Positions 1 through 35,331 of a DNA stretch of 64,000 bases are shown one piece after another; position 1 is the stretch's first letter, and every line of letters begins with the position of its first letter. The notes under the pieces were generated by a model. The model saw nothing but the letters and a program-made list of their open reading frames with translations, ran no database searches and was not told where the DNA came from. The translations under genes and the position numbers were made by a program. Source of the stretch: Nemertoderma westbladi (Eukaryota; Animalia; Xenacoelomorpha); NCBI GenBank assembly GCA_032718475.1, contig JAUCBJ010009081.1, forward strand, positions 1 through 64,000. Direction: 5' to 3'.

Positions 1-1
1 A

Positions 2-328: not shown

Positions 329-330
329 GT

Positions 331-786: not shown

Positions 787-817
787 TTAATCATTTAACT
801 TTTGTTTATCAGATAAA

Positions 818-2910: not shown

Positions 2911-3659
2911 CTTGGATGTCGGTGTTGGATGTTGGATGTCGGAACTGAAGTTTGTTGATTGATAGAGAAGGATTTTCGGAACTGAAGTTGGTTGAGGTTA
3001 GTTTTTTTTTTTTTTCAAATATGAAGATAAGTTAGGCCTAGTCTATACCGGGATTTATTTTTTTATGTTACGGTAGGGAAACAAAATTATAGTTCACTGT
3101 CAGAAAAATTGAGTTTATATATATTTTTGTAGAGGGTCGCAGATGTGTACATTACAAAATTCTCATAGTTAACAAAATGCACAACATAAACCTTTCCCAG
3201 GCGGATTAGCGATATATGCTCTGTTCGTTGTTCTATTCTGAATGTAGGGAGATGCATAGCCGATGTTTTAATGATATGTACCGGTATACAGACTAGTAAC
3301 AGATAGGAGGGCATCGTCTTTGACTATGAATACCAGCACATAGCCCTAATCTTTTCTCACCGAGCTTAGCGTTGCCCGCCGCACTCACGCACACTCATAA
3401 GTAACAGATGCGCTATTGTAACTCACTCGTGAGCAACAATGCCAAGTTAGGTAGCTAGCTACAGCCCCTGAGTATACTATGCCTACTTGAGTGTTACAAG
3501 CAGCAATCGCTCTACCAAAGTTAATTTCCCCTCAAACTAGTTGTTGATTTTAAAAAAATATTCATAATTTTTTTCCAGCCAATTTAATATATATATATAT
3601 ATTTTACAGTAAAAATCTCCACCACCAAACAGCAACAACAACAATAAATTTCACTCACA

Positions 3660-4241
3660 CTAATTATATTTTACAACAAAAACCCTCGCACCAAACAATA
3701 ATAAATTATTAACCAGTTTGTTGAATATAGGATAATATATATGAAATTTAAACGGGGAACACATTAATGTACATTTACCGGTGTAGAAGCAGCAAACAAC
3801 AACATTATTATTTATTCTGACTTTACAGTTATTGAATATTTCAGGCTCGTATGAAATTTCTAGTTTAACATTATCAAATATAACATAAAACCCGATATTG
3901 TTTATAAGTAACCTATAAATTACGGTATCTATACTAAAAATATAAGTACACAAATTGATTGATTTAAAAATCAAATTAATGTTTGTTTTTTCGAATATAT
4001 GCTTTTTCACTTTATTAAAATTATATTTTCTACCGAGAATTGTTATTCGACCATTTGTAAACATTAATATGGTTGCACCAAATACCTTATATATAAACTG
4101 ATTAGGTTTGAGTACAATTTTACCAGTCAATTGATTTTTTAATTCTTTTAAATTAAGTCCATAAATGATCTGCTTACAACTTATATTTTTATTTACTATT
4201 TGATAATTCATCATCAATACCATCGTCTTTTGGTTCTTCAT
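3660..4241 (-). CDS. Divergent TATA-binding-protein-like protein encoded by the Maverick
   Basis: Two TBP-type repeats: YQIVNKN..LNLKEL...ATILMFTNGRITILG (cf. TALIFSSGKMVCTG) and SYEPEIFNNCKVRINNNVVVCCFYTGKCTLM (cf. SYEPELFPGLIYRM..IVLLIFVSGKVVLTG). About 185-190 aa, the size of the TBP core. Confidence 0.8.
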   Translation of the reverse strand: MKNQKTMVLMMNYQIVNKNISCKQIIYGLNLKELKNQLTGKIVLKPNQFIYKVFGATILMFTNGRITILGRKYNFNKVKKHIFEKTNINLIFKSINLCTYIFSIDTVIYRLLINNIGFYVIFDNVKLEISYEPEIFNNCKVRINNNVVVCCFYTGKCTLMCSPFKFHIYYPIFNKLVNNLLLFGARVFVVKYN

Positions 4242-7200
4242 AAATTGGTATATTTGATATTTTTATAGGTTTTTTGAGGTTTGTTTTATAGTGCCCCCAA
4301 GGAAGCGAATGATTTTTATTAACCCAATAAAGTTTATCGTCAAAGCTACTGAGTGCAAATTTATTTTGCTTTAAGGTATAAATACGATGTAATTTAGATT
4401 GAAATCTGTGTATGTTTTTTTTTATTTCTTCATTTGAGTTATATGCTTTTAAATATTCTTCATGTGTAATATTCGTTTCCACAACAGCTCTTGTAATACC
4501 TTTTGCTCTACGAATATTTTTGTTATTCCATTCCAAAATTGAATATAATTTTGGTCTTAAAAATACTGCTTGTTTAATTTCACGTGAGGCTAGTTCGTCT
4601 TTACAGTAATTGAGTTGGGATTTATTTTTATCGCTGTAGAGAGGGTGATCCATAGGGTAATTGGAAGTATCTAAAATATTATTTTTAATTAATGCTTTTA
4701 AAAAATTATTCTGCGATGTATTATAGTAACAACCTATTAAAAGAGTCTGTGTCTGATGCAGCAATTTTCAATACGACAGTTTTAATTCTTTCTCAATAGG
4801 TAGCAATTTATTGTAGAAACAGCTCATACATATCCAATTTAGCCAAGTCCAAACACAGCGCTACCAATAAAATATAGGCTTATCGAGAGTTTACAGAGTC
4901 TTTCACTAATAAAATGTCCCGATAATGTATTATTGTATATTATAAATTGTTTCATGATTAATACGATTTACCAATTGATCGCATTTATCATTGCTATTTT
5001 GCGATACGAAAAGTTTACATCGATCTCTTATCTTTTCTATTGATTTGCCAAACAGTGAATTATTGAGCAATTTCGCGACAGCAGTTTTCAATGTAACTTT
5101 TTTGCTAGGCGCCCTTTGATTAATATTAAAAATCTATGTAATTTTTAAATACAAATTCTTGTTGAAAAGAATATAATTTATGTAGTTTAGTAACAATTAA
5201 TCCATGTTTTATATAAAATTTTAACAGTTTCAAATGTAAATGATAAAACTCTTTATCAAATTGCGTCAGCAAGAGTTTTGGTGTAGGCATCCTATATTTA
5301 CGGGAGGTACCTCTTTGTATCGATAAATTATTAAATTGTTCCCTCATATAAGGTGAAAGCATTGATTCATTTATACTTAAATGCTCTGGAGCTAACGGTA
5401 ATTGTAATGTTTGATTGTGAATAGCTTTAGGATAATTTAAATCACATATTAAAAAATATCCAGTAGATCCATCAATGTCTAAATCTACCAAGTACTCGAT
5501 TAGTTTTTCTGGAATTGCATTCTCTAAATGTTTAATACTTACTTCTTTGAATTGCGAGGTGGGTAGTTTTTTACTTAAATTCCCTGAATATAAAGAGTTG
5601 AAATCAATATTAAAAATATGGCATTCTTCCTTAGTAGAATCATATGTACTTGTTCCTGGTATATTTGATTCTATATAATGCTTTCGACAAAATGAAACAC
5701 CACCCCTAATTGATTTTTCAAAATCTCTATATGTCTGATAATCCTTTATTAATTCTATTTTACATTTATTATATTTTAGTGCGCAATCATAGGTAAATGA
5801 CGCGATACTACAGTAAAAAACCACTTCTAAATCGTAATTTTGTTTACAAACATTCCTAAAATTCTCAAATATATCAGCAAGCAAACAAACATCGAGTTTT
5901 AAATAGGCTAAAAGATAATCTTTGAGATTCACACAGTCGAATTCAACCCATGATAATTCCGCAAACCTATAATCTTCAATTGTACATGTTTTTTGACTTA
6001 AGTTACTAAAAAAATTATTTATAGATGGCAAACTAGTATCATTAAATTTATTAATATCTGTCAAGTACTCGTATGGAAATACTCCTTTCCGTTTAATTGT
6101 TGAGTTATTCAAGTTTGGATAAAAATATTTCATTTCTTGTAGAGTAATAGGTAAAATTGAGCTTATATCATGACTCGCTACATCCTTTGTTGAACACTCA
6201 ACTAAATTACTTAAAGAAAAGCTTAAAAATTGATATGTGTCCAAGAAACGTAACTCAATTTTTTTAGAAGTGTTTTTAATTGGGATAAATGCACTCAGTG
6301 AAATATATCGTTCTGTATTTCTCGGTATAACCTTTATATCCCAATCTGTGTATTTCTTATCTCTAAATCCTGGTTTGTAATATACAATGTATATCGTAGT
6401 TGTTGGAATTGTGCCCGCAAAGTACATACAGGTATCGTTTCAATGATAAACTTCGGTTACAACTATTACAGGCTGCCGCAATATATTTACCAGTAATATG
6501 TGAATGGTGTCTGTTTTTCCCAACATTATTATTTAAAGTAACATTACAATAGAAACAGAATTTTGCTTGTTCAAAATTTACAAAATCAATATTAGTAAAT
6601 GACATGGTTTTATGAGTGTATATGTCTGACCAACAACATAATTCAGTTAAATCAGTATATAATGAATCTAAGAAATCTTGAATACAATTATTATTATTAT
6701 TTGTCTTTACAAATGTTTTCAAATGACATTTTGGTGGGTCAATTAATTCAGTATTGGGAACAATTAAATAACTCACAGCACACGGTATATGCTCCTGTAT
6801 AAATTGATTATTAACTGAAGGTTGTAAGATACATTCTATATCAAAGTAGGTGACAAACAATGGGGATAAGGTTCTATCTAAATTTGTAAAACTAATGTGT
6901 GTTCTTTTTTTATTAGGTAGTTTCTCGCGCTGACTTCTTCCTTGGTAGCATACGAGACGGTGTCGATGAAGAACTTCCGCTCGAAAAAAATGAGCCAAGC
7001 ACCTTTCACAAAATTGCCTACCTCGGGTATGAAGAGCTCTCGTATTCAGCAATCGATTCAAGTTAGTTATGCAAACATAATGATTCAGTTTAGGTACATT
7101 GTTATTTTTTACTACAAGTAATATATTTAATAACTGTTTATCAGGTGTAATTTTACTAAACGGAGGTTGTCTTAATATAGATACAGGAGTGTGTTTGTTG

Positions 7201-8267
7201 TCGTTATTCCAACATAGTAAATTAATTATATATTTTGAATTTTGTTTTTCAAAAAGTTTAATCGCTAACTGCCACTCTGTTGGATAATCTTTGTTCCCAT
7301 TGTCAAAAATGAAATGACTCATATAATTTTTGTACAATGAAGTATGGTTTTTGTTGTTTTTCACTTTGCTACCAAATTTTGCGGATATAATAGCCCATTT
7401 GAAACAATCATTATCAGCTGTTTGTATATTTATTGTACATTTTTTAGCTGATAAAGCCTTAGGTAATTCCATATATCCATGCCCCTTATATAGTAACGAC
7501 CTACACTTAGATTCAGCTAATTTAATTTCAACCCTTAATAAAGATTTAATACGCCACCCCGAACCACGTGTGTTAAAGATGGCTATTTTTTGTAATATAT
7601 TTCCCAGCACATACTCAAACCATGTGTCAAAACTTTGCAGTGAATCTACAGTATTAATAGCACCACCGGAAGAATTAAAATGAAAGGTTTCCAATTGCTC
7701 GCCTTCTGAAAAATGTGATCTGTACATTAATACATTTAGACCTAACCACAGTCTAAGAACATTCATTTCTTTCAATCTATCTAATATTAACTGAAGAATA
7801 TTACCTCGAATTTGTGCTAATGCTGTTTCTACATCGGGATAATCTCTAGAAGTTGGGAGGTCGTGGACATAAATTTCAAGACGATTATCGTGAGCTTCTT
7901 GTTCCCGCGTAAAAATTGTTGCGCATGTACCAAGAGCCACCCTTAAGTTTTTTCTGGATATTATATTTTTATGTTGCGGAAATTTACTCTTTCTTGTGTA
8001 GTAACATTTCAAGTGACAGTCGTGTCGTATATAATTCTCATATGTATACTCTTTATTACAGGTAGAACAAGTCAATTGATAGGTGCGGAACTCCATTTCT
8101 TTACAACCAGTAGTTGATTCATGTCGTTTACAAATTTCGCTGCATGAAGTCACGACATGACACTTAAAACAAGAATAACCTTCAAAATGTGACCGTAGGT
8201 GGCGTAAGTAATTATGTCTAGTTACATTCATATGACAGAATGAACAACATATTGTTATTTTATCCAT
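4189..8267 (-). CDS. Protein-primed family B DNA polymerase (pPolB), split by several frameshifts
   Basis: N-terminal Zn-finger motifs, GSGW/CFKWAI, YFDIEC (ExoI), endonuclease VII-like C..C..HSHITGKY..AACNSCN, HNSNNYD (ExoII), KGVFPYEY, YLKLDV, SIRGG, DFNSLY (motif A), KLLNNSLFGK (motif B, about 5045-5075), SDTDS (about 4745-4760), LRPKLYS, AKGI. Frameshifts near 6375, 5128 and within 4740-4940. Confidence 0.92.
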
Positions 8268-8459
8268 GTTGAAGTTTGTTTAGATAAATAATAATAATAA
8301 TAATAATAATAAAATATGTCCAAAGATTAAAATAAAATGAAATGATATGATATTGACTATATCTAAACATTTATATGCTAGCGAGGGAAATAATTTTAAA
8401 CCAATCACCAATCGCTTATGGCTATTGGAAACCACAAAGAGTTTAACTTATGATTAGGT

Positions 8460-9525
8460 TTACATATTAGGATAATAATCAGGTTTCCATGGAGAATTAG
8501 TAACAGGCTCTACTAGAACTGGGTTACTGACAACTTTCTGTTTCTTTGCAGGTGATGCGGTGGTAAATTTACTCGATGATCTTGGCTTCCGAGGTAATAT
8601 TTCAGGAAAGACCTGTTGCGGTTGAGAGCAACTCTCTTCAACATCCGGATTAGGTGATGGGATCTCTACGAATGCTTTAGGTTTATCCAAAAGGACAAAA
8701 CCGTCAACACGGGCTTCAGTAAGAGAAACGCCATCCATCGATTCTTTGAGAAAACTAATATGGGCTTTATCATTCAAGTAATGCAACTCGATAGAATTTC
8801 CGCCGGCACCTACTTCAGTAGAATTATCGGTGTTGGTGATAATAATTTTTTTATTATTGGTTTTAATCATTTTGAGACGGTCTGATAATTGAATGATATT
8901 TTTATCAAAAAGATGCTTGTCTGTTTCATCGACTTGGTTGTCCCACTCTCGCAACAAAACGGATAGTTCCTGTTTTGACAAATTGAAACCCGTATAATAG
9001 TTAAAACCAACACTATCAGCGTATCTGAGGCTGATTTTCCATAAGCCAACATAGTTGGTTCCTTTAAAAGCTGTTACAAATCCAATAAACTCTGGATTTG
9101 ATAATTCAATGTAGAATTGATCGCTAATAATCTCTAGCGGTGGAGAGAGAAATTGCAATAATTTCCCTCTGTATTGAATTAGAACTTCAGTAAAAGCTTT
9201 GTTGAGAACTTTACATTTGCCTTGTTTCTGAACGTAAACATCACCCGATGTGGGGTTGATGGAAATATTCAAATTTCCCCGCGCAAAACGAAGAGTGGGA
9301 TATATCCTACCTGGTATAATTGCTGGTCTGGATTGATGTTGGTTGTTGTTGGTTGTTTCTAGAATGTCTAACAGATAGCGGAAAAACAATATGGGAAAAA
9401 CAAATTGATTCGTTGTCCACCTGAGATTCCACAATAAAATACTTGCTGTGAACGACGGTACAAGTATATTTATTGTAAGTAAATTTCCAGCTATTTGTTG
9501 CTCCGGTTTTTTGCGTTAAGGCCAT
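8460..9525 (-). CDS. Maverick protein with a PC4/Sub1-like ssDNA-binding domain; probable start at ATG 9525 with a frameshift near 9380
   Basis: FVTAFKGTNYVGLWK...TGFNLSKQELSVL resembles PC4 (VSVRDFKGKVLIDIREY...KGISLNPEQWSQL). C-terminal basic NLS-like PAKKQK. Confidence 0.55.
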
Positions 9526-10632: not shown

Positions 10633-11195
10633 AGTCTAGTCAGTTTGTCTGAAAATAGGACGGACAGTCTGTGTTACATTTTGACGGACATACCGTCTAA
10701 ATAGAGCCAGCGATAACTCGACAACTAAAAAAGATCACGCTTAGCCGTATTCAGTTTTGCAATCCTCATTAAATTATGTTACGTAAATTAAATAAAATTA
10801 TATTTAAATGTAGGATTCTGTGATGAAAGGCGAGTTTTCCATACAAATATGGGAAATTGAATACCGAAGGAGGCCCCCGCCCCAGTGACTATAGGCACCA
10901 GATCCATAATTATTCACCGTTTCGCAAGAGGCTCACATTGACCATTGCCTTGTTTTCCACAGAACTAATTGTAGCCTACGATCTAACAAAACTTATGATT
11001 TATTTGCCTTGAATATCCAGGAAAAATCCACCAAAACGATTTCCACCGGTATTTGTAATTTATTCTCTAATATTCGATTTAACTCTAATTTTTCCTTTTT
11101 CAATTGATGACATCCAATGTAACAGGTTAATACCCAAATCCCCAAATTAATATTTAACATTGTTAATTATTAGTTATTAATTCGCTGATATTGGA

Positions 11196-11491
11196 AGATG
11201 GCTGGTCAGCGTAACAGGCACGTTATTACTCGTGCGACCGCCCATGGGTTCCACCACCTAATCTGCGTCAACCAAACGCCTTTCCACTCGCTATCCACCG
11301 AATGTATATGTCAGTACTGTAACCTCCCATGTACACGACGATATCATGCACTGAACTGCAGCGACTGCCCTCCACTTTCCCGTCTCGCATCTCAATAACT
11401 AATAATTGTATTCAATTTATTTTCTATTTATTTATGTACATTAATTTTACTGGTTTCCATTTACCCCGCCTGGGGGTGTATCGAATTAATA
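11196..11491 (+). mobile_element. 5'-truncated non-LTR retrotransposon with 18-bp target-site duplication
   Basis: TAATTCGCTGATATTGGA flanks the insert (11178-11195 and 11492-11509). The insert encodes HGFHHLIC...CQYCNLPCTRRYHALNC, a CCHC-type ORF2 C-terminus, then an AT-rich 3' tail. Confidence 0.7.
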
Positions 11492-11647
11492 TAATTCGCT
11501 GATATTGGATTTGCGTCAATTGCCCCCGTTCCTTACAATTCTCTGCGATGTGATTGTATAAATTTATATGTAACAACTCGCTACGAAGTCTCACCGGAAT
11601 GAAGTTGAAATTTTAGATAAATAAATAAATAATTCTTTGAAACTAAC

Positions 11648-11800
11648 TTGCATTCCTTGACCAGCAGTTTGGTAATAAAGTCCTTGGCTTCGTCTGATAT
11701 GCAATCAAATTCCTCAGCGTCGAAGTCCCATGCTGCCATGGTTACATTGCACAAGGTCTCCGTGTCAGTGTCTCCCATAAAAGGTGACAATCCGCTCAAC
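11648..11800 (-). CDS. MYLK: MLCK-type kinase exon 6 (subdomains IX-XI)
   Basis: tttag|G TTG AGC GGA...: LSGLSPFMGDTDTETLCNVTMAAWDFDAEEFDCISDEAKDFITKLLVKEC, donor AA|GTTAGT; phase 2-2. Confidence 0.92.
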
Positions 11801-11826
11801 CTAAATATATTAACCATTACAATCTG

Positions 11827-14800
11827 ACCGAACTTAGAGAACATAAGTTATGTAAACAATCCGTATATCCCCTAAACCAAACTTACAGAACATAAGTTAT
11901 GTAAACAATCCGTCTATCCCACCTAAACCGAACTTACAGAACATAAGTTATGTAAACAATCCGTCTATCCCCTAAACCAAACTTACAGAACATAAGTTAT
12001 GTAAACAATCCGTCTATCCAACCTAAACCAAACTTACAGAACATAAGTTATGTAAACAATCCGTCTATCCCACCTAAACCGAACTTACAGAACATAAGTT
12101 ATGTAAACAATCCGTATATCCCCTAAACCAAACTTACAGAATATAAGTTATGTTAAATAATCCGTCAATCCCACCTAAACCGAACTTACAGAACATAAGT
12201 TATGTAAACAATCCGTCTATCCCCTAAACCAAACTTACAGAACATAAGTTATGTAAACAATCCGTCTATCCAACCTAAACCAAACTTACAGAACATAAGT
12301 TATGTAAACAATCCGTCTATCCCTTAAACCAAACTTACAGAATATAAGTTATGTAAACAATCCGTCTATCCCCTAAACCAAACTTACAGAACATAAGTTA
12401 TGTAAACAATCCGTCTATCCAACCTAAACCAAACTTACAGAACATAAGTTATGTAAACAATCCGTCTATCCCACCTAAACCGAACTTACAGAACATAAGT
12501 TATGTAAACAATCCGTCTATCCCCTAAACCAAACTTACAGAACATAAGTTATGTAAACAATCCGCCTATCCAACCTAAACCAAACTTACAGAACATAAGT
12601 TATGTAAACAATCCGTTCATCCAACCTAAACCGACCTTACAGAACAAAAGTTATGTAAACAATCCGTTTATCCAACCTAAACCAAACTTACAAAACATAA
12701 GTGATGTAAACAATCCGTTTATCCAACCTAAACCGAGCGTACAGAACATGAGTTATGTAAACAATCCGTCTATCCCCTAAACCAAACTTACAAAACATAA
12801 GTTATGTAAACAATCCGTTTATCCAACCTAAACCAACCCTTAGAGAACATGAGTTATGTAAACAATCCATTTATCCCTTAAACCGAACTTACAGAACATA
12901 TGTTATGTAAACAATCCGTCTATCCCCTAAACCAAACTTACAGAACATAAGTTATGTAAACAATCCGTCTATCCCCTAAACCAAACTTACAGAACATAAG
13001 TTATGTAAACAATCCATTTATCCCCTAAACCGAACTTACAGAACATAAGTTATGTAAACAATCCGTTTATCCAACCCAAACCAAACTTACAGAACATAAG
13101 TTATGTAAACAATCCGTCTATCCAACCTAAACCGAGCGTACAGAACATGAGTTATGTAAACAATCCGTCTATCCCCTAAACCAAACTTACAAAACATAAG
13201 TTATGTAAACAATCCGTTTATCCAACCTAAACCAAACTTAGAGAACATAAGTTATGTAAACAAGTCGTTTATCCAACCTAAACCAACCTTAGAGAACATA
13301 AGTTATGTAAACAATCCATTTATCCCTTAAACCGAACTTACAGAACATAAGTTATGTAAACAATCCGTTTATCCAACCCAAACCAAACTTACAGAACATA
13401 AGTTATGTAAACAATCCATTTATCCCCTAAACCGAACTTACAGAACATAAGTTATGTAAACAATCCGTTTATCCAACCCAAACCAAACTTACAGAACATA
13501 AGTTATGTAAACAATCCGTCTATCCAACCTAAACCGAGCGTACAGAACATGAGTTATGTAAACAATCCGTCTATCCCCTAAACCAAACTTACAAAACATA
13601 AGTTATGTAAACAATCCGTCTATCCAACCTAAACCAAACTTACAAAACATAAGTTATGTAAACAATCCGTCTATCCCCTAAACCAAACTTACAGAACATA
13701 AGTTATGTAAACAATCCGTCTATCCAACCTAAACCGAGCGTACAGAACATGAGTTATGTAAACAATCCGTCTATCCCCTAAACCAAACTTACAAAACATA
13801 AGTTATGTAAACAATCCGTTTATCCAACCTAAACCAACCCTTAGAGAACATAAGTTATGTAAACAAGTCGTTTATCCAACCTAAACCAAACTTACAGAAC
13901 ATAAGTTATGTAAACAATCCGTCTATCCAACCTAAACCAAACTTACAGAACATGAGTTATGTAAACAATCCGTCTATCCCCTAAACCAAACTTACAGAAC
14001 ATAAGTTATGTAAACAATCCGTCTATCCCCTAAACCAAACTTACAGAACATAAGTTATGTAAACAATCCGTCTATCCCCTAAACCAAACTTACAGAACAT
14101 AAGTTATGTAAACAATCCGTCTATCCCCTAAACCAAACTTACAGAACATAAGTTATGTAAACAATCCGTCTATCCAACCTAAACCAAACTTACAGAACAT
14201 AAGTTATGTAAACAATCCGTTTATCCAACCTAAACCAACCCTTAGAGAACATAAGTTATGTAAACAAGTCGTTTATCCAACCTAAACCAAACTTACAGAA
14301 CATAAGTTATGTAAACAATCCGTCTATCCAACCTAAACCAAACTTACAGAACATGAGTTATGTAAACAATCCGTCTATCCCCTAAACCAAACTTACAGAA
14401 CATAAGTTATGTAAACAATCCGTCTATCCCCTAAACCAAACTTAGAGAACATAAGTTATGTAAACAAGTCGTTTATCCAACCTAAACCAAACTTACAGAA
14501 CATAAGTTATGTAAACAATCCGTCTATCCAACCTAAACCAAACTTACAGAACATAAGTTATGTAAACAATCCGTCTATCCCCTAAACCGAACTTACAGAA
14601 CATAAGTTATGTAAACAATCCGTTTATCCAACCTAAACCAACCCTTAGAGAACATAAGTTATGTAAACAAGTCGTTTATCCAACCTAAACCAAACTTACA
14701 AAACATAAGTTATGTAAACAATCCGTTTATCCAACCTAAACCAAACTTACAAAACATAAGTTATGTAAACAATCCGTTTATCCAACCTAAACCAACCCTT

Positions 14801-17800
14801 AGAGAACATAAGTTATGTAACAATCCGTCTATCCCCTAAACCGAACTTACAGAACATAAGTTATGTAAACAATCCGTCTATCCCCTAAACCGAACTTACA
14901 GAACATAAGTTATGTAAACAATCCGTTTATCCAACCTAAACCAACCCTTAGAGAACATAAGTTATGTAAACAAGTCGTTTATCCAACCTAAACCAAACTT
15001 ACAAAACATAAGTTATGTAAACAATCCGTTTATCCAACCTAAACCAAACTTACAAAACATAAGTTATGTAAACAATCCGTTTATCCAACCTAAACCAACC
15101 CTTAGAGAACATAAGTTATGTAACAATCCGTCTATCCAACCTAAACCGAACTTACAGAACATAAGTTATGTAAACAATCCGTCTATCCCCTAAACCGAAC
15201 TTACAGAACATAAGTTATGTAAACAATCCGTTTATCCAACCTAAACCAACCCTTAGAGAACATAAGTTATGTAACAATCCGTCTATCCAACCTAAACCGA
15301 ACTTACAGAACATAAGTTATGTAAACAATCCGTCTATCCCCTAAACCGAACTTACAGAACATAAGTTATGTAAACAATCCGTTTATCCAACCTAAACCAA
15401 CCCTTAGAGAACATAAGTTATGTAACAATCCGTATATCCCCTAAACCAAACTTACAGAACATAAGTTATGTAAACAATCCGTCTATCCCACCTAAACCGA
15501 ACTTACAGAACATAAGTTATGTAAACAATCCGTATATCCCCTAAACCAAACTTACAGAACATAAGTTATGTAAACAATCCGTCTATCCCACCTAAACCGA
15601 ACTTACAGAACATAAGTTATGTAAACAATCCGTCTATCCCCTAAACCGAACTTACAGAACATAAGTTATGTAAACAATCCGTTTATCCAACCTAAACCAA
15701 CCCTTAGAGAACATAAGTTATGTAAACAATCCGTCTATCCCCTAAACCAAACTTACAGAACATAAGTTATGTAAACAATCCGTTTATCCAACCTAAACCA
15801 ACCCTTAGAGAACATAAGTTATGTAAACAATCCGCCTATCCAACCTAAACCGAACTTACAGAACATAAGTTATGTAAACAATCCGTCTATCCAACCTAAA
15901 CCAACCCTTAGAGAACATAAGTTATGTAAACAATCCGCCTATCCAACCTAAACCAAACTTACAAAACATAAGTTATGTAAACAATCCGTCTATCCCCTAA
16001 ACCAAACTTACAGAACATAAGTTATGTAAACAATCCGTCTATCCCACCTAAACCGAACTTACAGAACATAAGTTATGTAAACAATCCGTCTATCCCCTAA
16101 ACCGAACTTACAGAACATAAGTTATGTAAACAATCCGTTTATCCAACCTAAACCAACCCTTAGAGAACATAAGTTATGTAAACAATCCGTTTATCCAACC
16201 TAAACCAACCCTTAGAGAACATAAGTTATGTAAACAATCCGCCTATCCAACCTAAACCAACCCTTAGAGAACATAAGTTATGTAAACAATCCGTCTATCC
16301 CCTAAACCGAACTTACAGAACATAAGTTATGTAAACAATCCGTTTATCCAACCTAAACCAAACTTACAGAACATAAGTTATGTAAACAATCCGCCTATCC
16401 AACCTAAACCAACCCTTAGAGAACATAAGTTATGTAAACAATCCGTCTATCCCCTAAACCAAACTTACAGAACATAAGTTATGTAAACAATCCGTTTATC
16501 CAACCTAAACCAAACTTACAGAACATAAGTTATGTAAACAATCCATTTATCCCCCAAACCAAACTTAGAGAACATAAGTTATGTAAACAATCCGTCTATC
16601 CAACCTAAACCAAACTTACAGAACATAAGTTATGTAAACAATCCGTCTATCCCCTAAACCGAACTTACAGAACATAAGTTATGTAAACAATCCGTCTATC
16701 CCCTAAACCGAACTTACAGAACATAAGTTATGTAAACAATCCGTTTATCCAACCTAAACCAAACTTACAGAACATAAGTTATGTAAACAATCCGCCTATC
16801 CAACCTAAACCAACCCTTAGAGAACATAAGTTATGTAAACAATCCGTCTATCCCCTAAACCAAACTTACAGAACATAAGTTATGTAAACAATCCGTTTAT
16901 CCAACCTAAACCAAACTTACAGAACATAAGTTATGTAAACAATCCATTTATCCCCCAAACCAAACTTAGAGAACATAAGTTATGTAAACAATCCGTCTAT
17001 CCAACCTAAACCAAACTTACAGAACATAAGTTATGTAAACAATCCGTCTATCCCCTAAACCGAACTTACAGAACATAAGTTATGTAAACAATCCGTTTAT
17101 CCAACCTAAACCAACCCTTAGAGAACATAAGTTATGTAAACAATCCGTTTATCCAACCTAAACCAACCCTTAGAGAACATAAGTTATGTAAACAATCCGC
17201 CTATCCAACCTAAACCAACCCTTAGAGAACATAAGTTATGTAAACAATCCGTCTATCCCCTAAACCAAACTTACAGAACATAAGTTATGTAAACAATCCG
17301 TTTATCCAACCTAAACCAAACTTACAGAACATAAGTTATGTAAACAATCCGCCTATCCAACCTAAACCAACCCTTAGAGAACATAAGTTATGTAAACAAT
17401 CCGTCTATCCCCTAAACCAAACTTACAGAACATAAGTTATGTAAACAATCCGTTTATCCAACCTAAACCAAACTTACAGAACATAAGTTATGTAAACAAT
17501 CCATTTATCCCCCAAACCAAACTTAGAGAACATAAGTTATGTAAACAATCCGTCTATCCAACCTAAACCAAACTTACAGAACATAAGTTATGTAAACAAT
17601 CCGTTCATCCAACCTAAACCGACCTTACAGAACAAAAGTTATGTAAACAATCCGTTTATCCAACCTAAACCAAACTTACAGAACATGAGTTATGTAAACA
17701 ATCCGTCTATCCCCTAAACCAAACTTACAGAACATAAGTTATGTAAACAATCCGTCTATCCCCTAAACCAAACTTACAGAACATAAGTTATGTAAACAAT

Positions 17801-20800
17801 CCGTCTATCCAACCTAAACCAAACTTACAGAACATAAGTTATGTAAACAATCCGTCTATCCAACCTAAACCGAGCGTACAGAACATGAGTTATGTAAACA
17901 ATCCGTCTATCCCCTAAACCAAACTTACAAAACATAAGTTATGTAAACAATCCGTTTATCCAACCTAAACCAAACTTACAGAACATAAGTTATGTAAACA
18001 ATCCGTCTATCCAACCTAAACCAAACTTACAGAACATAAGTTATGTAAACAATCCGTCTATCCCCTAAACCAAACTTACAAAACATAAGTTATGTAAACA
18101 ATCCGTTTATCCAACCTAAACCAAACTTACAGAACATAAGTTATGTAAACAATCCGTCTATCCAACCTAAACCAAACTTACAGAACATAAGTTATGTAAA
18201 CAATCCGTTTATCCAACCTAAACCAACCCTTAGAGAACATAAGTTATGTAAACAATCCGTCTATCCAACCTAAACCAAACTTACAGAACATAAGTTATGT
18301 AAACAATCCGTTTATCCAACCTAAACCAACCCTTAGAGAACATAAGTTATGTAAACAATCCGTCTATCCAACCTAAACCAAACTTACAGAACATAAGTTA
18401 TGTAAACAATCCGTTTATCCAACCTAAACCAACCCTTAGAGAACATAAGTTATGTAAACAATCCGCCTATCCAACCTAAACCAAACTTACAGAACATAAG
18501 TTATGTAAACAATCCGTTCATCCAACCTAAACCGACCTTACAGAACAAAAGTTATGTAAACAATCCGTTTATCCAACCTAAACCAAACTTACAGAACATG
18601 AGTTATGTAAACAATCCGTCTATCCCCTAAACCAAACTTACAGAACATAAGTTATGTAAACAATCCGTCTATCCCCTAAACCAAACTTACAGAACATAAG
18701 TTATGTAAACAATCCGTCTATCCAACCTAAACCAAACTTACAGAACATAAGTTATGTAAACAATCCGTTCATCCAACCTAAACCGACCTTACAGAACAAA
18801 AGTTATGTAAACAATCCGTTTATCCAACCTAAACCAAACTTACAGAACATGAGTTATGTAAACAATCCGTCTATCCCCTAAACCAAACTTACAGAACATA
18901 AGTTATGTAAACAATCCGTCTATCCCCTAAACCAAACTTACAGAACATAAGTTATGTAAACAATCCGTCTATCCAACCTAAACCAAACTTACAGAACATA
19001 AGTTATGTAAACAATCCGTTTATCCAACCTAAACCAACCCTTAGAGAACATAAGTTATGTAAACAATCCGTTTATCCAACCTAAACCAACCCTTAGAGAA
19101 CATAAGTTATGTAAACAATCCGCCTATCCAACCTAAACCAAACTTACAGAACATAAGTTATGTAAACAATCCGTTCATCCAACCTAAACCGACCTTACAG
19201 AACAAAAGTTATGTAAACAATCCGTTTATCCAACCTAAACCAAACTTACAGAACATGAGTTATGTAAACAATCCGTCTATCCCCTAAACCAAACTTACAG
19301 AACATAAGTTATGTAAACAATCCGTCTATCCCCTAAACCAAACTTACAGAACATAAGTTATGTAAACAATCCGTCTATCCAACCTAAACCAAACTTACAG
19401 AACATAAGTTATGTAAACAATCCGTCTATCCAACCTAAACCGAGCGTACAGAACATGAGTTATGTAAACAATCCGTCTATCCCCTAAACCAAACTTACAA
19501 AACATAAGTTATGTAAACAATCCGTTTATCCAACCTAAACCAAACTTACAGAACATAAGTTATGTAAACAATCCGTCTATCCAACCTAAACCAAACTTAC
19601 AGAACATAAGTTATGTAAACAATCCGTTTATCCAACCTAAACCGAGCGTACAGAACATGAGTTATGTAAACAATCCGTCTATCCCCTAAACCAAACTTAC
19701 AAAACATAAGTTATGTAAACAATCCGTTTATCCAACCTAAACCGAGCGTACAGAACATGAGTTATGTAAACAATCCGTCTATCCCCTAAACCAAACTTAC
19801 AAAACATAAGTTATGTAAACAATCCGTTTATCCAACCTAAACCAACCCTTAGAGAACATAAGTTATGTAAACAAGTCGTTTATCCAACCTAAACCAAACT
19901 TACAGAACATGAGTTATGTAAACAATCCGTCTATCCCCTAAACCAAACTTACAGAACATAAGTTATGTAAACAATCCGTCTATCCCCTAAACCAAACTTA
20001 CAGAACATAAGTTATGTAAACAATCCGTCTATCCAACCTAAACCAAACTTACAGAACATAAGTTATGTAAACAATCCGTCTATCCCCTAAACCAAACTTA
20101 GAGAACATAAGTTATGTAAACAAGTCGTTTATCCAACCTAAACCAAACTTACAGAACATAAGTTATGTAAACAATCCGTCTATCCAACCTAAACCAAACT
20201 TACAGAACATGAGTTATGTAAACAATCCGTCTATCCCCTAAACCAAACTTACAGAACATAAGTTATGTAAACAATCCGTTTATCCAACCTAAACCAACCC
20301 TTAGAGAACATAAGTTATGTAAACAAGTCGTTTATCCAACCTAAACCAAACTTACAGAACATAAGTTATGTAAACAATCCGTCTATCCAACCTAAACCAA
20401 ACTTACAGAACATGAGTTATGTAAACAATCCGTCTATCCCCTAAACCAAACTTACAGAACATAAGTTATGTAAACAATCCGTCTATCCAACCTAAACCAA
20501 ACTTACAGAACATGAGTTATGTAAACAATCCGTCTATCCCCTAAACCAAACTTACAGAACATAAGTTATGTAAACAATCCGTCTATCCAACCTAAACCAA
20601 ACTTACAGAACATAAGTTATGTAAACAATACGTCTATCCCTTAAACCAAACTTACAGAACATAAGTTATGTAAACAATCCGTCTATCCCTTAAACCAAAC
20701 TTACAGAACATAAGTTATGTAAACAATCCGTCTATCCAACCTAAACCAAACTTACAGAACATGAGTTATGTAAACAATCCGTCTATCCCCTAAACCAAAC

Positions 20801-23765
20801 TTACAGAACATGAGTTATGTAAACAATCCGTCTATCCCCTAAACCAAACTTACAAAACATAAGTTATGTAAACAATCCGTCTATCCAACCTAAACCAAAC
20901 TTACAAAACATAAGTTATGTAAACAATCCGTCTATCCCCTAAACCAAACTTACAGAACATAAGTTATGTAAACAATCCGTTTATCCAACCTAAACCAACC
21001 CTTAGAGAACATAAGTTATGTAAACAATCCGTCTATCCAACCTAAACCAAACTTACAGAACATGAGTTATGTAAACAATCCGTCTATCCCCTAAACCAAA
21101 CTTACAGAACATGAGTTATGTAAACAATCCGTCTATCCCCTAAACCAAACTTACAGAACATAAGTTATGTAAACAATCCGTCTATCCCCTAAACCAAACT
21201 TACAGAACATAAGTTATGTAAACAAGTCGTTTATCCAACCTAAACCAACCTTAGAGAACATAAGTTATGTAAACAATCCATTTATCCCTTAAACCGAACT
21301 TACAGAACATAAGTTATGTAAACAATCCGTTTATCCAACCCAAACCAAACTTACAGAACATAAGTTATGTAAACAATCCGTCTATCCAACCTAAACCAAA
21401 CTTACAGAACATGAGTTATGTAAACAATCCGTCTATCCCCTAAACCAAACTTACAGAACATGAGTTATGTAAACAATCCGTCTATCCCCTAAACCAAACT
21501 TACAGAACATGAGTTATGTAAACAATCCGTCTATCCCCTAAACCAAACTTACAGAACATGAGTTATGTAAACAATCCGTCTATCCCCTAAACCAAACTTA
21601 CAGAACATGAGTTATGTAAACAATCCGTCTATCCCCTAAACCAAACTTACAGAACATGAGTTATGTAAACAATCCGTCTATCCCCTAAACCAAACTTACA
21701 AAACATAAGTTATGTAAACAATCCGTCTATCCAACCTAAACCAAACTTACAAAACATAAGTTATGTAAACAATCCGTTTATCCAACCTAAACCAACCCTT
21801 AGAGAACATAAGTTATGTAAACAATCCGTCTATCCAACCTAAACCGAACTTACAGAACATGAGTTATGTAAACAATCCGTCTATCCCCTAAACCAAACTT
21901 ACAGAACATGAGTTATGTAAACAATCCGTCTATCCCCTAAACCAAACTTACAGAACATAAGTTATGTAAACAATCCGTCTATCCCCTAAACCAAACTTAC
22001 AGAACATAAGTTATGTAAACAATCCGTCTATCCCCTAAACCAAACTTACAGAACATAAGTTATGTAAACAAGTCGTTTATCCAACCTAAACCAACCTTAG
22101 AGAACATAAGTTATGTAAACAATCCATTTATCCCTTAAACCGAACTTACAGAACATAAGTTATGTAAACAATCCGTTTATCCAACCCAAACCAAACTTAC
22201 AGAACATAAGTTATGTAAACAATCCGTCTATCCAACCTAAACCAAACTTACAGAACATGAGTTATGTAAACAATCCGTCTATCCCCTAAACCAAACTTAC
22301 AGAACATGAGTTATGTAAACAATCCGTCTATCCCCTAAACCAAACTTACAGAACATAAGTTATGTAAACAATCCGTCTATCCCCTAAACCAAACTTACAG
22401 AACATAAGTTATGTAAACAAGTCGTTTATCCAACCTAAACCAACCTTAGAGAACATAAGTTATGTAAACAATCCATTTATCCCTTAAACCGAACTTACAG
22501 AACATAAGTTATGTAAACAATCCGTTTATCCAACCCAAACCAAACTTACAGAACATAAGTTATGTAAACAATCCATTTATCCCCTAAACCGAACTTACAG
22601 AACATAAGTTATGTAAACAATCCGTTTATCCAACCCAAACCAAACTTACAGAACATAAGTTATGTAAACAATCCGTCTATCCAACCTAAACCGAGCGTAC
22701 AGAACATGAGTTATGTAAACAATCCGTCTATCCCCTAAACCAAACTTACAAAACATAAGTTATGTAAACAATACGTCTATCCAACCTAAACCAAACTTAC
22801 AGAACATAAGTTATGTAAACAATCCGTTTATCCAACCTAAACCGAGCGTACAGAACATGAGTTATGTAAACAATCCGTCTATCCCCTAAACCAAACTTAC
22901 AAAACATAAGTTATGTAAACAATCCGTCTATCCAACCTAAACCAACCCTTAGAGAACATAAGTTATGTAAACAATCCGTCTATCCCCTAAACCAAACTTA
23001 CAGAACATAAGTTATGTAAACAATCCGTCTATCCCCTAAACCAAACTTACAGAACATAAGTTATGTAAACAATCCATTTATCCCCCAAACCAAACTTAGA
23101 GAACATAAGTTATGTAAACAATCCGTCTATCCCCTAAACCAAACTTACAGAACATAAGTTATGTAAACAATCCGTTTATCCAACCTAAACCAACCCTTAG
23201 AGAACATAAGTTATGTAAACAATCCGTCTATCCCCTAAACCAAACTTACAGAACATAAGTTATGTAAACAATCCATTTATCCCCCAAACCAAACTTAGAG
23301 AACATAAGTTATGTAAACAATCCGTCTATCCCCTAAACCAAACTTACAGAACATAAGTTATGTAAACAATCCGTTTATCCAACCTAAACCAACCCTTAGA
23401 GAACATAAGTTATATAAACAATCCGTCTATCCCCTAAACCAAACTTACAGAACATAAGTTATGTAAACAATCCGTTTATCCAACCTAAACCAACCCTTAG
23501 AGAACATAAGTTATATAAACAATCCGTCTATCCCCTAAACCAAACTTACAGAACATAAGTTATGTAAACAATCCGTTTATCCAACCTAAACCAACCCTTA
23601 GAGAACATAAGTTATATAAACAATCCGTCTATCCCCTAAACCAAACTTACAGAACATAAGTTATGTAAACAATCCGTCTATCCAACCTAAACCAAACTTA
23701 GAGAACATAAGTTATGTAAACAATCCGTCTATCCCCTAAACCAAACTTACAGAACATAAGTTATG
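11827..23765. repeat. Intronic satellite, 49/51/52-bp unit, about 240 copies, containing the exon end and splice donor
   Basis: Unit cttacagaacataagttatgtaaacaatccgtctatcc(cc|aacc)taaaccaaa. The last copy overlaps exon 5 by 15 bp. Confidence 0.97.
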
Positions 23766-23950
23766 ACGCCGATACTCCACATATCCGTTCCGGGGCCGAG
23801 ACTCTCAAATCCTATAACTTCCGGCGCACAGAATTCCGGAGTTCCGAACATCGCCTTTACCGTTTCGTTCGGATTCATTTTCCGAGCCAAACCAAAGTCA
23901 ATTATTTTGATTTTGTTGCTGCGTTTATTGACGCAAAGTACATTTTCCGG
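23751..23950 (-). CDS. MYLK: MLCK-type kinase exon 5 (PEN, DFG, APE)
   Basis: ttaag|CCG GAA AAT: PENVLCVNKRSNKIKIIDFGLARK...FGTPEFCAPEVIGFESLGPGTDMWSIGVITYV, donor CT|GTAAGT; phase 0-2. Confidence 0.95.
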
Positions 23951-27383: not shown

Positions 27384-27525
27384 CTTCATATCCAGATGAA
27401 GAATGTTCCTTTCGTGCATAAACTTGGTACCTTCTAGAATTTGGATTAGGAAGAATATGCACATCCTTTCGGTTAGTTCAAACTCCTCGTCGATAACTCG
27501 TTCGAACAATTCGCCGCCTTCCAAC
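27384..27525 (-). CDS. MYLK: MLCK-type kinase exon 4 (subdomains V-VIb)
   Basis: ttcag|G TTG GAA: LEGGELFERVIDEEFELTERMCIFFLIQILEGTKFMHERNILHLDMK, donor AAG|GTATTT; phase 2-0. Confidence 0.95.
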
Positions 27526-28979: not shown

Positions 28980-30218
28980 TTATTTCGTTACTTCGACACC
29001 ATTCCGTATGTGAGGTATGTAACTTTCTTTGTTTCGATATATGGGAAGTCTTTCTTGCGATACCCATTGCTGAAACCAATTAGGGAATTTATCCTCATGT
29101 AAATTAATATAAGATGATGCCGATGTGGATGCTGATTGGCTGGAGTTGGCAGCTGATTGATCCCTGGACTGTTTGCGGAAATGAACGTGTTTCTTATGGT
29201 TAAGGGGGATTTCAACTTCCCTTAGTATTTTCCCTGTGACGGAGGAATGTTTCTGAGGAAAACGTTTCAGTTTCGGTATGTCGATAACGTTGTGGCAGGC
29301 AAACGTCAACTCACGGTCGTTTCTCTTCGGAAACAGAACCGCTTCTATTAATCCCGGCGGTAGTTCGGGTTCGCGTAACACTAACTCGTCGTCACTCAAC
29401 CCCGATGGTTCCTCGGCGACAGAGGGTATGTTACTTGCGTTCGCCTTACCGTCAGCCTCTGTGTTGTTCGCCACTCCTCGCTTCCGATTTTTAGGAGAAA
29501 CATTAACAGCATCGTTTGGATTCTTAAACCAGTTGTTGAACGCCAAATCGCCTTCCGATTTGCGAATGACCCGTTTCGACACTTCGATATCATCCAATAG
29601 TTCTTCCTGGTAGTTTTTAATAGATTTTAGGTATTGAATATCATTTTGTTTTTTATTGTTTGCCAGCTGCCACTCGGCGTGCGCCAAGGCGCGAGCGCAA
29701 TCCCTGTGGCCCCACAACCGCGCCAAATCGACGGGAAGATGACCCCGTAGGTCTCTCCGATCGATCCGACCCCGAGATTTAATGATCTCTTCGAGGCAGT
29801 GAAGGTGTCCCTCCTGGGCAGCCTGGTGGGCGGGGCTGGTTCCATCTTCATTGCTAAGACTAGTATCCGATCCATTCTCCAATAGGTAATGACATATTTT
29901 GTAGGCGTTCCTACCGGTTTGATTGTTTATACACAGGAGTAGAGCCGTCCACCCGTTGGCGCTAGGTTGGTTCACATCGGCGCGGCATTCATCCACAAGG
30001 TACTCGACACACGCGTAACGCCCTTGTAACGCGGCCAGATGTAACACTGTCATTCCGTTCTTGTCCAACAGTGTGCTTTTCTCCTGGTCTCCGTTCATAC
30101 ACGATCGTAGCCACTTCAGATCGCCGACTCCCGCTGCCATGAATATATCCTCGCTGCCGCGTTTCTTTCGCCGTGTCGTCGACGGCAGTGACGGGGTTAC
30201 TTGTTTTAACTCGGCCAT
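28980..30218 (-). CDS. ANKRD53: Ankyrin-repeat protein, ANKRD53-like, intronless, nested in a kinase intron
   Basis: 412-aa ORF with about 4 ankyrin repeats. GHLPVDLARLWGHRDCARALAHAEWQ resembles ANKRD53 (GYKPIDFCKIWNHRACARFLKDAMWK, recalled from memory). Confidence 0.8.
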   Translation of the reverse strand: MAELKQVTPSLPSTTRRKKRGSEDIFMAAGVGDLKWLRSCMNGDQEKSTLLDKNGMTVLHLAALQGRYACVEYLVDECRADVNQPSANGWTALLLCINNQTGRNAYKICHYLLENGSDTSLSNEDGTSPAHQAAQEGHLHCLEEIIKSRGRIDRRDLRGHLPVDLARLWGHRDCARALAHAEWQLANNKKQNDIQYLKSIKNYQEELLDDIEVSKRVIRKSEGDLAFNNWFKNPNDAVNVSPKNRKRGVANNTEADGKANASNIPSVAEEPSGLSDDELVLREPELPPGLIEAVLFPKRNDRELTFACHNVIDIPKLKRFPQKHSSVTGKILREVEIPLNHKKHVHFRKQSRDQSAANSSQSASTSASSYINLHEDKFPNWFQQWVSQERLPIYRNKESYIPHIRNGVEVTK

Positions 30219-31551
30219 CGTATTAACTGGATGGGGTTGAACGAACTGTTTTGGAAATTATAATATAACATAAAGTATAATGTGTATGGTGGGTAATTAT
30301 TATATTAGTGTATTACTATTAAAGTTTCAGATGATATTTTTTTGAAAATTTATTCAAATATAAAATACACTTTACTTTATTTATTTGTATTTAATTTTAA
30401 ATTAATTATTTATTTGTACTTTATTTTAAATTAATTAATTGTATCTTAGCTTTATAGATTGATAGATAGGTTTAAACAATAGATTTAAAACATAAATAAA
30501 CACTAATTAATATACTTGCTATGAATGAATTCAAGTTTTATTCATTTTGAATATTTCTTATTTCATATCTTATTTGTATTCTGTATATCATTTTAGTTTG
30601 AAGTTTCACTTAAGGCGATTGTTTTTATAGTGCGCTCACCAATAAACGTAACTTATGAGTGTGTTGAGTAATTTAAAATATTATACTTTTTTATGTTTGA
30701 CAATTTATTTACAAATAATAAAAAGTATGTTAAGTTAACTTAACGTTAAGTATATCAAAATAAAAGTTCGGGCCTACACCAACACCAGTAATAATGATAA
30801 TAAAACGTTTAATGTGAGATGGGAGATGGCCCAGTGTAGTTTCAAATTTATTTTAAGTTTTACATGTAAATTTAAATATTATATTATTATTGTAATGAAA
30901 AAAAAAACAGTACGATTTGGAGATAAATAATATGTTGGTATCATTTCATTTAGTATAAATAGGGTTACGTTGAATGTATTTGGCAGTGAAAAAAATTAGC
31001 TTAACTTTGTTTATAATAGTTGCTAGGCAACATCCACAGAACCGTACAATAAAGTAAAGGTTTGCTTTTAATATTTACAGCATATTGATATCTTTATGAT
31101 GTAAGCTGTTCAACTATATCAACCGATATATTATATATCATATGAAATTGAGAAAAATAGAAATAAGAAAAAGAAAATTACCCCATGAATTACAACTTAA
31201 TATTTAATGCTGAATTAATTCAACATTTTCCATTCGTTATTCTTCAGGTGCCAACAATGTTATTGCACTTATTTTTATCGTGGCCTCTCTCAAATTGTCT
31301 TTCTATCTCATGTGTCTATCTCTATGACCTGCTCCGGTATGTGACAGGACAGAAATCTTGTAATTTGCTTCATAAGGAGTGCAGCCATTCAGGACACTGT
31401 CTATATTGTATCGAAGCAAACGACACAGGTGTTATCGCCAGGGCGAGGATCGGTTGGGGGGATGGCCTGCGGGTTGGTGCGAGGGGGGTCGGGGCCTTGA
31501 GGGACGGAGAGCGGGCGAAAAACGGATGGTTTCGAGGGGACTGGGGCCCTA

Positions 31552-34664: not shown

Positions 34665-34868
34665 ATTTCCAATATAAGAATAATTTCCTTTTTATATTTG
34701 AAGGCGTCGTAAAGCTGCAGCAGTCTGGGATGTTGTAATTCTTTCATTATCTCGATCTCATTAATACAGGCCTTAATTTCGTTTTGATCCATCGTTTGAA
34801 TGAATTTCGCGGCTAAAATTTTACCCCCTTTTTTTTCTTTTGCTCGGTGTACAGCTCCAAATTTCCCT
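34665..34868 (-). CDS. MYLK: MLCK-type kinase exon 3 (Gly loop, catalytic Lys, helix C); not in the ORF track
   Basis: ttgcag|A GGG AAA TTT GGA: GKFGAVHRAKEKKGGKILAAKFIQTMDQNEIKACINEIEIMKELQHPRLLQLYDAFKYKKEIILILE, donor AT|GTGAGT; phase 2-2. Confidence 0.95.
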
Positions 34869-35210: not shown

Positions 35211-35331
35211 CTTCCCAATTCCTCCATAACTTCATATATGTCTTTATACGGTACATCGTTGTGCAAAACCACCTTACGGACTTCGAAAGGGGCCTCTACC
35301 TCGGCGAGATCATCAAACTCACCAGGAGCAG
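35211..35331 (-). CDS. MYLK: MLCK-type kinase exon 2
   Basis: ttcag|CT GCT CCT: APGEFDDLAEVEAPFEVRKVVLHNDVPYKDIYEVMEELG, donor AG|GTACAA; phase 1-2, joins to give ELGRGKFG. Confidence 0.9.

What the first reader, a model, noticed from the sequence alone, without database searches (positions are those of the whole stretch)
11780..23765. Each satellite unit is an acceptor-microexon-donor cassette; the 51-bp variant is an in-frame 36-nt pseudo-exon
Seen in sequence: the unit also mimics the downstream junction. The true acceptor reads TTTAG|GTTGAGCGGATTGT; the unit reads TTTAG|GTTGGATAGACGGATTGT. So each unit fuses an exon 6-like start to the exon 5 end. In 51-bp units the AG-to-GT segment is 36 nt, phase 2-2 like the host intron, and has no stop (G TTG GAT AGA CGG ATT GTT TAC ATA ACT TAT GTT CT, adding LD(R/K)RIVYITYVL). 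In 49-bp units it is 34 nt with an in-frame TAG, i.e. poison-like. Inference: a possible array of alternative in-frame versus NMD-triggering microexons, or a relic of circular/rolling amplification joining both exon boundaries. Caveats: the pyrimidine tract is weak, adjacent units are only 15 nt apart (too short to splice), and an insertion in kinase helix F would probably inactivate the enzyme.
Basis: partly seen in the sequence, partly recalled or inferred. Interest (0 to 1): 0.78.

Follow-up and report, generated by a model that had tools for sequence, protein, structure and literature searches.

The report
Two-sided splice-junction repeat in kinase intron
A 50-base piece holding the end of one exon, both ends of the intron and the start of the next exon is repeated 237 times (12 kb) inside that intron of an animal's myosin light chain kinase gene; the one spliced transcript assembly seen skips every copy, so it is likely a harmless, two-sided variant of a repeat type known from lancelets and likely not a bank of mini-exons.

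Summary
237 units of 48-52 bp fill 11,913 of the 11,950 bases of an intron in an invertebrate MLCK-family kinase gene (minus strand). Each unit joins the exon-5 end, donor, acceptor and an exon-6-like start. The exon-6 likeness of the 51-mer beats chance (0 of 6,853 background windows; 17 of 20,000 shuffles). 99 units could give an open 36-nt exon and 71 a 34-nt exon with a stop.

The microexon reading is not supported. One spliced contig from another sample joins exon 5 directly to exon 6. Splice sites decay freely, and helix-F spacing is fixed in 105 of 105 measurable homologues. Rare inclusion is not excluded.

Most likely origin: a tandem duplication across a formerly short intron, bounded by GTCA in both exons. 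The inner intron copies collapsed to 15 nt and the unit was amplified stepwise. The intron position itself is ancient.

This is a two-sided variant of lancelet 'mirage' minisatellites and the human F7 repeat. The scan has already noted many such splice-border arrays elsewhere in this genome; in the notes I saw, the unit copies one border only.

The parts
23751..23950 (-).
   Evidence: Translation; Pfam Pkinase E 1.4e-20; MLCK-family hits up to 75% identity; covered by spliced contig
23764..23767 (-). Left GTCA microhomology arm; the unit's copy of exon 5 begins inside it (shared suffix 15 nt, 23765-23751)
23745..23750 (-). True splice donor GTAAGT, which is also the start of unit 1; reading through it gives an immediate TAA stop
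11838..23750 (-). Array of 237 units (48-52 nt): 15-nt collapsed intron (donor + acceptor), exon-6-like start, exon-5 end; 188 decoy GT donors and 217 TAG acceptors
11801..11837 (-). 37-nt non-repeat tail: dead donor (CT for GT) to true acceptor; likely the least-collapsed relic of the ancestral intron
   Evidence: two substitutions in a second individual; the relic reading is inference
11648..11800 (-).
11785..11788 (-). Right GTCA microhomology arm; the unit's copy of exon 6 ends inside it
27384..27525 (-). Upstream kinase exon, joined to 23950 in the spliced contig
34665..34868 (-). Upstream kinase exon (glycine loop to hinge)
35211..35331 (-). Upstream kinase exon

Best explanation
The array is a minisatellite made of the kinase gene's own exon-5 end, both intron ends and an exon-6-like start, which likely arose by one tandem duplication across a formerly short intron and is likely silent in splicing.

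Steps. (1, shown) The intron position is old, and it is short in several other animals. (2, inferred) A stretch from the GTCA near the end of exon 5 to the GTCA near the start of exon 6 was duplicated in tandem, leaving a hybrid piece of exon-6 start plus exon-5 end between two intron copies. (3, inferred) The first intron copy lost its middle and shrank to 15 nt, the hybrid piece gained 7 nt, and the last copy kept a 37-nt intron with a dead donor. (4, pattern shown, mechanism inferred) The collapsed unit expanded to 237 copies by repeated unequal exchange or slippage of multi-unit blocks. (5, shown in one assembled transcript) The first donor and the last acceptor are used. (6, inferred) The decoys stay silent for three reasons: the most upstream donor wins; each decoy acceptor has a donor site and its AG sitting 10-15 nt upstream, in the zone where real acceptors have no AG; and rare mis-spliced products mostly carry stops.
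For: Similarity to both junctions beyond chance.

The exon-5 copy and the exon-6 copy each end inside the same GTCA. The chance of the two extra dinucleotides is about 0.002 from exon composition, computed post hoc. This is the signature of microhomology-mediated tandem duplication (PMC13167724, abstract and start of introduction).

The same phase-2 intron is present in other MLCK/DAPK-like loci: of 20 such loci, 12 had it with the next exon found, 3 had a GT with the next exon not found, and 5 were contiguous. These 20 are among 73 of 80 loci with the motif, and two pairs look like duplicates. Lengths were 54-1,323 nt, six of them 54-65 nt.

Repeated runs of up to 9 identical unit types, against a maximum of 5 in 200 shuffles.

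Direct exon 5-exon 6 join in contig X4: positions 560-764 lie on exon 5 and 763-916 on exon 6, 0 mismatches, and each loose end reads the other exon.

The array borders are the same in DNA of a second individual, runs X2/X3.

Five of 5 true acceptors have no AG at -20 to -3, whereas the unit acceptor examined has one. In human data an added AG in that zone can silence an acceptor (PMC9284458, abstract). The most upstream donor is used in the human F7 repeat (PMC1557585; abstract, introduction, discussion).
Against: No relative or allele with the short intron was seen, so steps 2-3 are reconstructed from one allele.

A 37-nt intron is shorter than all MLCK/DAPK-like introns found at this position (54 nt and up). 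The tail may therefore be trimmed, or may be a broken unit.

Seven letters of the unit are not explained by exons 5 and 6 or the intron ends. They match the start of the following exon as two 7-nt blocks, a score reached by 5 of 4,546 background 30-mers (1 of 4,546 when anchored at the start; post hoc). This hints at a more complex templated origin.

The transcript evidence is one assembled contig from one run. The tool labels that run 'DNA?'; I infer RNA from its three exon joins. Contigs drop rare isoforms.

The unit acceptor is as pyrimidine-rich as the true ones, and 168 donor-to-next-acceptor gaps are 64-67 nt, so the decoys are not obviously unusable.
Confidence: 0.7

Rival explanations
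1. Also silent, but made in two steps: a donor-side repeat (exon-5 end + intron start) and an acceptor-side repeat (intron end + exon-6 start) arose separately in the same intron, were fused by a deletion or template switch, and the fused pair was amplified. Bits templated from the following exon may have been patched in.
For: Unchecked scan notes report both one-sided kinds in this genome. The unit has three small insertions relative to exon 6 and the junction. The match to the following exon's start suggests patchwork. No unit carries a full-length intron.
Against: No pure donor-type or acceptor-type unit survives among 237 units; all are within 7 edits of the modal 51-mer. Matching GTCA arms at both outer limits follow directly from one duplication and would be a coincidence here.
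Confidence: 0.17
2. The array is a by-product of duplication, but the spliceosome removes the 12-kb intron piecemeal, using internal donor-acceptor pairs 64-67 nt apart or AG|GT recursive sites, and now and then leaves a 36-nt or 34-nt microexon in the message.
For: 168 of 236 adjacent unit pairs offer a 64-67-nt intron, and 127 of 237 units have AG directly followed by GT. Unit 2 is an open 36-nt exon 64 nt from the true donor.
Against: The donor regenerated at AG|GT reads GTTGGA or GTGGGA, a poor match to the consensus given in PMC1557585. The spliced contig is unbranched across the direct junction.
Confidence: 0.09
3. One reading: a selected bank of alternative in-frame and NMD-triggering microexons that regulates the kinase.
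For: 99 units give open 36-nt exons and 71 give stop-containing 34-nt exons with both sites intact.
Against: Direct junction in the one transcript assembly. The donor G is among the most variable columns (48 of 237 units). A 36-nt length is in frame one time in three by chance. The 12 added residues would fall in helix F, where spacing is the same in 105 of 105 measurable homologues (15 of 120 not measurable).
Confidence: 0.03
4. Assembly artefact: the array or its chimeric unit was made by the assembler.
For: No laid contig spans the array, so its length is not independently confirmed.
Against: 44 distinct unit types with block structure, and no N in the array. Contigs of a second individual run from unique DNA into the unit on both sides.
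Confidence: 0.01

Closest known systems
Lancelet 'mirage' minisatellites (Adh3, globins BflGb6/BflGb9, troponin C, PGBD5). PMC3087553 and PMC3902484, matching passages read.
   Same: Tandem copies of the host gene's exon-intron boundary; many but not all keep AG/GT; regular splicing is kept; the edge copy differs from the inner ones.
   Different: In the passages read, each mirage copies one boundary, with 3-6 units in BflGb6. Here the unit carries both boundaries of one intron around a 15-nt collapsed intron, in 237 copies that make up 99.7% of the intron.
Human F7 intron 7 37-bp VNTR, and the 6-16, CBS, LMNB2 and PDGF arrays it cites. PMC1557585; abstract, introduction and discussion read.
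   Same: The first unit spans the exon-intron boundary, so the donor is reiterated; the most upstream donor is used.
   Different: Donor only, 5-25 copies. In 6-16 and CBS the next one or two pseudo-donors are also used, a precedent for low-level leak that I could not test here.
Microhomology-mediated tandem duplication as the origin of tandem repeats (Haber and Louis model). PMC13167724; abstract and start of introduction read.
   Same: A single-copy segment flanked by short direct repeats is duplicated and then expands.
   Different: Here the segment spans a whole intron, the arms lie in two coding exons, and the junction carries 3 extra letters.
Intron gain by tandem duplication (Rogers model). 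PMC4974935, seen as a search listing only; also discussed in the PMC3087553 passages.
   Same: An intragenic duplication is hidden from the mRNA by splicing.
   Different: No new intron was made: the position is shared with other MLCK/DAPK-like genes. The duplication enlarged an existing intron.

Membership tests
Mirage minisatellite | Tandem repeat whose unit spans an exon-intron boundary of the host gene | tested here: met
   15-nt exact copy of the exon-5 end plus donor; acceptor plus exon-6 start beyond chance
Mirage minisatellite | Many but not all units keep AG/GT signals | tested here: met
   217 of 237 units with a TAG acceptor; GT at 189 of 238 donor positions, the true donor included
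Mirage minisatellite | Regular splicing is undisturbed | tested here: met
   Direct junction in one spliced contig; rare isoforms are not visible in contigs
Mirage minisatellite | Concerted turnover inside the array, with the edge copy excluded | tested here: met
   Repeated runs of up to 9 units against 5 in shuffles; the last copy keeps a unique 37-nt tail
Mirage minisatellite | Length instability between alleles or cells | not testable with these tools
   Only collapsed contigs were available; none spans the array
Functional alternative microexon / poison-exon array | Segments are included in mRNA | tested here: inconclusive
   Not in the one assembled transcript, which joins the exons directly; low-level inclusion cannot be seen in contigs
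Functional alternative microexon / poison-exon array | Splice sites are conserved relative to the rest of the unit | tested here: not met
   Donor G lost in 48 of 237 units and AG in 20 of 237, while many other columns are invariant; units are related, so these are not independent losses
Functional alternative microexon / poison-exon array | An in-frame insert falls where the protein tolerates it | tested here: not met
   Spacing from the DxW motif to GxxPF is 8 in 105 of 105 measurable homologues; 15 of 120 could not be measured
Recursive splice sites | AG|GT that regenerates a strong donor | tested here: not met
   127 AG|GT sites, followed by TGGA (120) or GGGA (7)
Recursive splice sites | Splicing intermediates (saw-tooth nascent cover, internal lariats) | not testable with these tools
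   No raw RNA reads were available
Intron gain by tandem duplication | The intron position is new | tested here: not met
   Same phase-2 intron in 12 of 20 MLCK/DAPK-like loci, a GT in 3 more, contiguous in 5

The most novel reading that the evidence does not exclude
The array is a frozen record of a whole-intron duplication in which every unit is a usable exon between overlapping 64-67-nt mini-introns. The cell would clear this 12-kb intron in internal steps and, in some tissues, keep 36-nt or 34-nt copies as new microexons that break or switch off the kinase. That would make a satellite a direct source of new exons and a natural test of how one donor and one acceptor are chosen among about 200 identical decoys of each.
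Probability: 0.1. Interest if true: 0.7.

Novelty: new variant of a known kind. Interest (0 to 1): 0.33.

Why it matters
If the best reading holds, it shows how a short intron can grow to 12 kb purely from copies of its own two borders, with the birth scar (matching GTCA arms in both exons) still readable. It also shows that splicing can pick the outermost pair among 188 decoy donors and 217 decoy acceptors. That makes the locus a ready minigene test of splice-site choice. The phenomenon itself, tolerated splice-border repeats, is known from lancelets and humans. The two-sided unit was not described in the listings or passages of my searches; these cover open-access papers only, and no supplements were read. 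The larger open question is why this genome makes so many such arrays, and this locus is one example of that.

Tried and rejected
No whole genome is held for this window, so I could not test whether the unit occurs elsewhere or measure this species' intron sizes.

No RNA holder was listed by the run search; that blank says nothing about expression. Runs X6 and X7 (two other organisms) gave no usable match to exon 5 at 80% likeness (0 and 1 contigs), so no relative's intron was seen.

Lack of X4 cover on the unit and tail is not used by itself; only the join is. Summed contig depth on the unit was roughly 40-130 times single-copy depth in X1-X3, but the tool states this is no copy number.

RNA folding of the donor plus the first four units is no better than shuffles (z -0.32), so structure-based masking is not supported.

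The weak pyrimidine tract was rejected as the reason for silence.

A single rolling-circle burst was set aside because unit types recur in blocks at many spacings, although a circle could have made the first copies.

The flanks of the 36-mer and 41-mer arrays showed no exon that I could identify, and their best matches in the window were not followed up.

The exon after exon 6 is not in the window by exact match of two motifs.

No splice-strength model was available, so acceptor strength was judged only by pyrimidine count and AG content. No structure was predicted for the inserted form.
Full report
Host gene. The finding lies in a minus-strand kinase gene. Five exons can be read in the window: 35331-35211, 34868-34665, 27525-27384, 23950-23751 and 11800-11648, with introns of 342, 7,139, 3,433 and 11,950 nt. 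In a search limited to proteins longer than the query it found 3,037 hits at E 1e-15 or better; the named ones among the 120 listed are mostly animal myosin light chain kinases, the best at 75% and 72% identity. The host is therefore an invertebrate animal with no close annotated relative among the hits listed.

The array. Cutting at the donor position gives 237 units from 23750 to 11838: 101 of 49 nt, 96 of 51, 36 of 52, and two each of 48 and 50, in 44 distinct types. All are within 7 edits of the modal 51-mer. A 37-nt non-repeat tail follows, which starts with CT in place of GT and ends at the true acceptor. The array has no N. Each unit has four parts: a donor-led 10 nt, TTTAG, an exon-6-like stretch, and an exact copy of the last 15 nt of exon 5.

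Is the exon-6 likeness real? For the 51-mer, yes: score 24, reached by 0 of 6,853 background windows, 0 of 1,722 YAG-anchored windows and 17 of 20,000 shuffles. For the 49-mer it is weak (37 of 6,853; 675 of 20,000), as expected if it derives from the 51-mer by a 2-nt loss (inference). The unit acceptor has 10 pyrimidines in 17 positions against 8-13 for the true acceptors. And a donor lies 64-67 nt from the next unit's acceptor in 168 of 236 pairs. The decoys cannot be dismissed on sequence alone.

What the transcript shows. The run search listed four holders, none on record as RNA. Run X4 nevertheless gave a 1,801-nt contig of depth 107.5 that covers exon 5 with no mismatch; its loose ends read the upstream exon on one side and exon 6 on the other. 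On the exon-6 side a record of the same length and depth covers exon 6 from record position 763, directly after exon 5 (560-764, with a 2-nt ambiguous overlap), and its loose end reads the exon-5 end. I take these to be one spliced mRNA contig (inference from three exon joins). It shows a direct exon 5-exon 6 junction with no unit inserted. It is one sample, and contigs drop rare forms, so low-level inclusion remains open. Runs X2/X3, one other individual, run from unique DNA into the unit at both ends, with two substitutions in the tail and none in exon 6. X1 shows no difference over 11464-11860 and may be the source of the assembly, so it is not counted as support.

No sign of selection for microexons. 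GT is lost at 49 of 238 donor positions and the TAG acceptor in 20 of 237 units. The donor G is among the most variable columns, while many others are invariant. The 12 added residues would sit at the end of helix F, where the distance to the GxxPF motif is 8 in 105 of 105 measurable homologues, 15 of 120 being unmeasurable. That helix F anchors the kinase core is recalled knowledge. Reading through the true donor gives a stop at once, so use of any later donor as an exon extension yields a truncated product.

Origin. The intron position is old. Among 80 metagenome loci, 73 had the motif and 20 of these were MLCK/DAPK-like. Twelve had the same phase-2 intron (54-1,323 nt, six of 54-65 nt; two pairs look like duplicates), three had a GT with the next exon not found, and five were contiguous. 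So the duplication did not create the intron, and a short ancestral intron is plausible. The unit's copy of exon 5 begins inside GTCA at 23767-23764, and its copy of exon 6 ends inside GTCA at 11788-11785. The two extra dinucleotide matches have a chance of about 0.002, computed post hoc. A tandem duplication between these arms gives exactly the order seen (exon-5 end, intron, exon-6 start, exon-5 end, and so on), with the last copy running into the real exon 6. This is the pattern described for microhomology-mediated tandem duplication (PMC13167724). The inner intron copies are 15 nt and the last is 37 nt, so a deletion before amplification must be assumed. Unit types recur in runs of up to 9 at many spacings, against a maximum of 5 in 200 shuffles, which fits stepwise block amplification.

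One loose thread. Seven letters of the unit are not in exon 5, exon 6 or the intron ends. They match the start of the following exon, seen only as a loose end and not found in the window, as two 7-nt blocks. Five of 4,546 background 30-mers reach that score, and 1 of 4,546 when anchored at the start. The test was devised after seeing the match, and the letters could also be copied from within the unit, so this is unresolved. It keeps the fusion or patchwork rival alive.

Why the decoys are likely silent (inferred). In the human F7 repeat the most upstream of several identical donors is used (PMC1557585). All five true acceptors here lack AG at -20 to -3, whereas the unit acceptor examined has a donor and its AG there. 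In human variants an AG in that zone can silence an acceptor (PMC9284458, abstract). Recursive use is unlikely because the 127 AG|GT sites regenerate poor donors. Folding gave nothing beyond shuffles. These mechanisms come from mammals and are untested in this animal.

Comparison with what is known. Tandem copies of exon-intron boundaries that leave splicing intact are known as 'mirages' in lancelets (PMC3087553, PMC3902484; passages) and from human F7, 6-16, CBS, LMNB2 and PDGF. The mirage name came to me from earlier scan notes, which report many such arrays in this same genome (unchecked); I then read the papers' passages. The case meets four of five mirage features, and one could not be tested. 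It differs in carrying both borders of one intron in each unit, and in size. My searches listed no description of a two-sided unit; they cover open-access text only, and supplements such as the mirage alignments were not read.

Verdict. Real feature, observation confirmed, microexon function not supported. Best explained as a tolerated two-sided mirage born from a whole-intron duplication (0.7). New variant of a known kind; interest 0.33.

Noticed in passing
window 1-9515: A Polinton/Maverick-like element lies downstream of exon 6, probably inside the next intron of the kinase gene. It has an adenovirus-type protease frame (304-783, PF00770) and a TBP-like frame (3663-4262, PF00352), plus a B-type DNA polymerase-like region in several separate frames (about 4190-8280) and a capsid-like end (2-325), both recognised by recalled motifs and without Pfam hits.
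   Followed up: partly
window 28983-30257 (-): Intronless ankyrin-repeat open frame of 425 codons nested in the 7-kb kinase intron, on the same strand.
   Followed up: partly
window 48684-49679 (+) and 51028-51852 (+): Two intronless fibrinogen C-domain frames.
   Followed up: partly
window 36668-48259 and 55122-60977: Two more large unrelated arrays: a 36-mer of about 321 copies and a 41-mer of about 143 copies, the latter ending at the N gap. No flanking exon was identified. About 95 nt of the spliced contig lie upstream of 35331, so a further exon may lie beyond the 36-mer array.
   Followed up: partly
unit versus start of the exon after 11648 (loose end): The unit's otherwise unexplained letters match that exon's start as 7+7 nt (5 of 4,546 background, 1 of 4,546 anchored; post hoc).
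   Followed up: partly
window 23701 and 11837: Both the first decoy donor after the true one and the last one before the true acceptor are dead (CT for GT). CT variants are common near the 5' end, so this may be chance.
   Followed up: no
window 11178-11491 and 11551-11636: The second individual lacks a 314-nt high-copy element and an 86-nt piece in the intron after exon 6 (joints): insertion or deletion polymorphisms.
   Followed up: no
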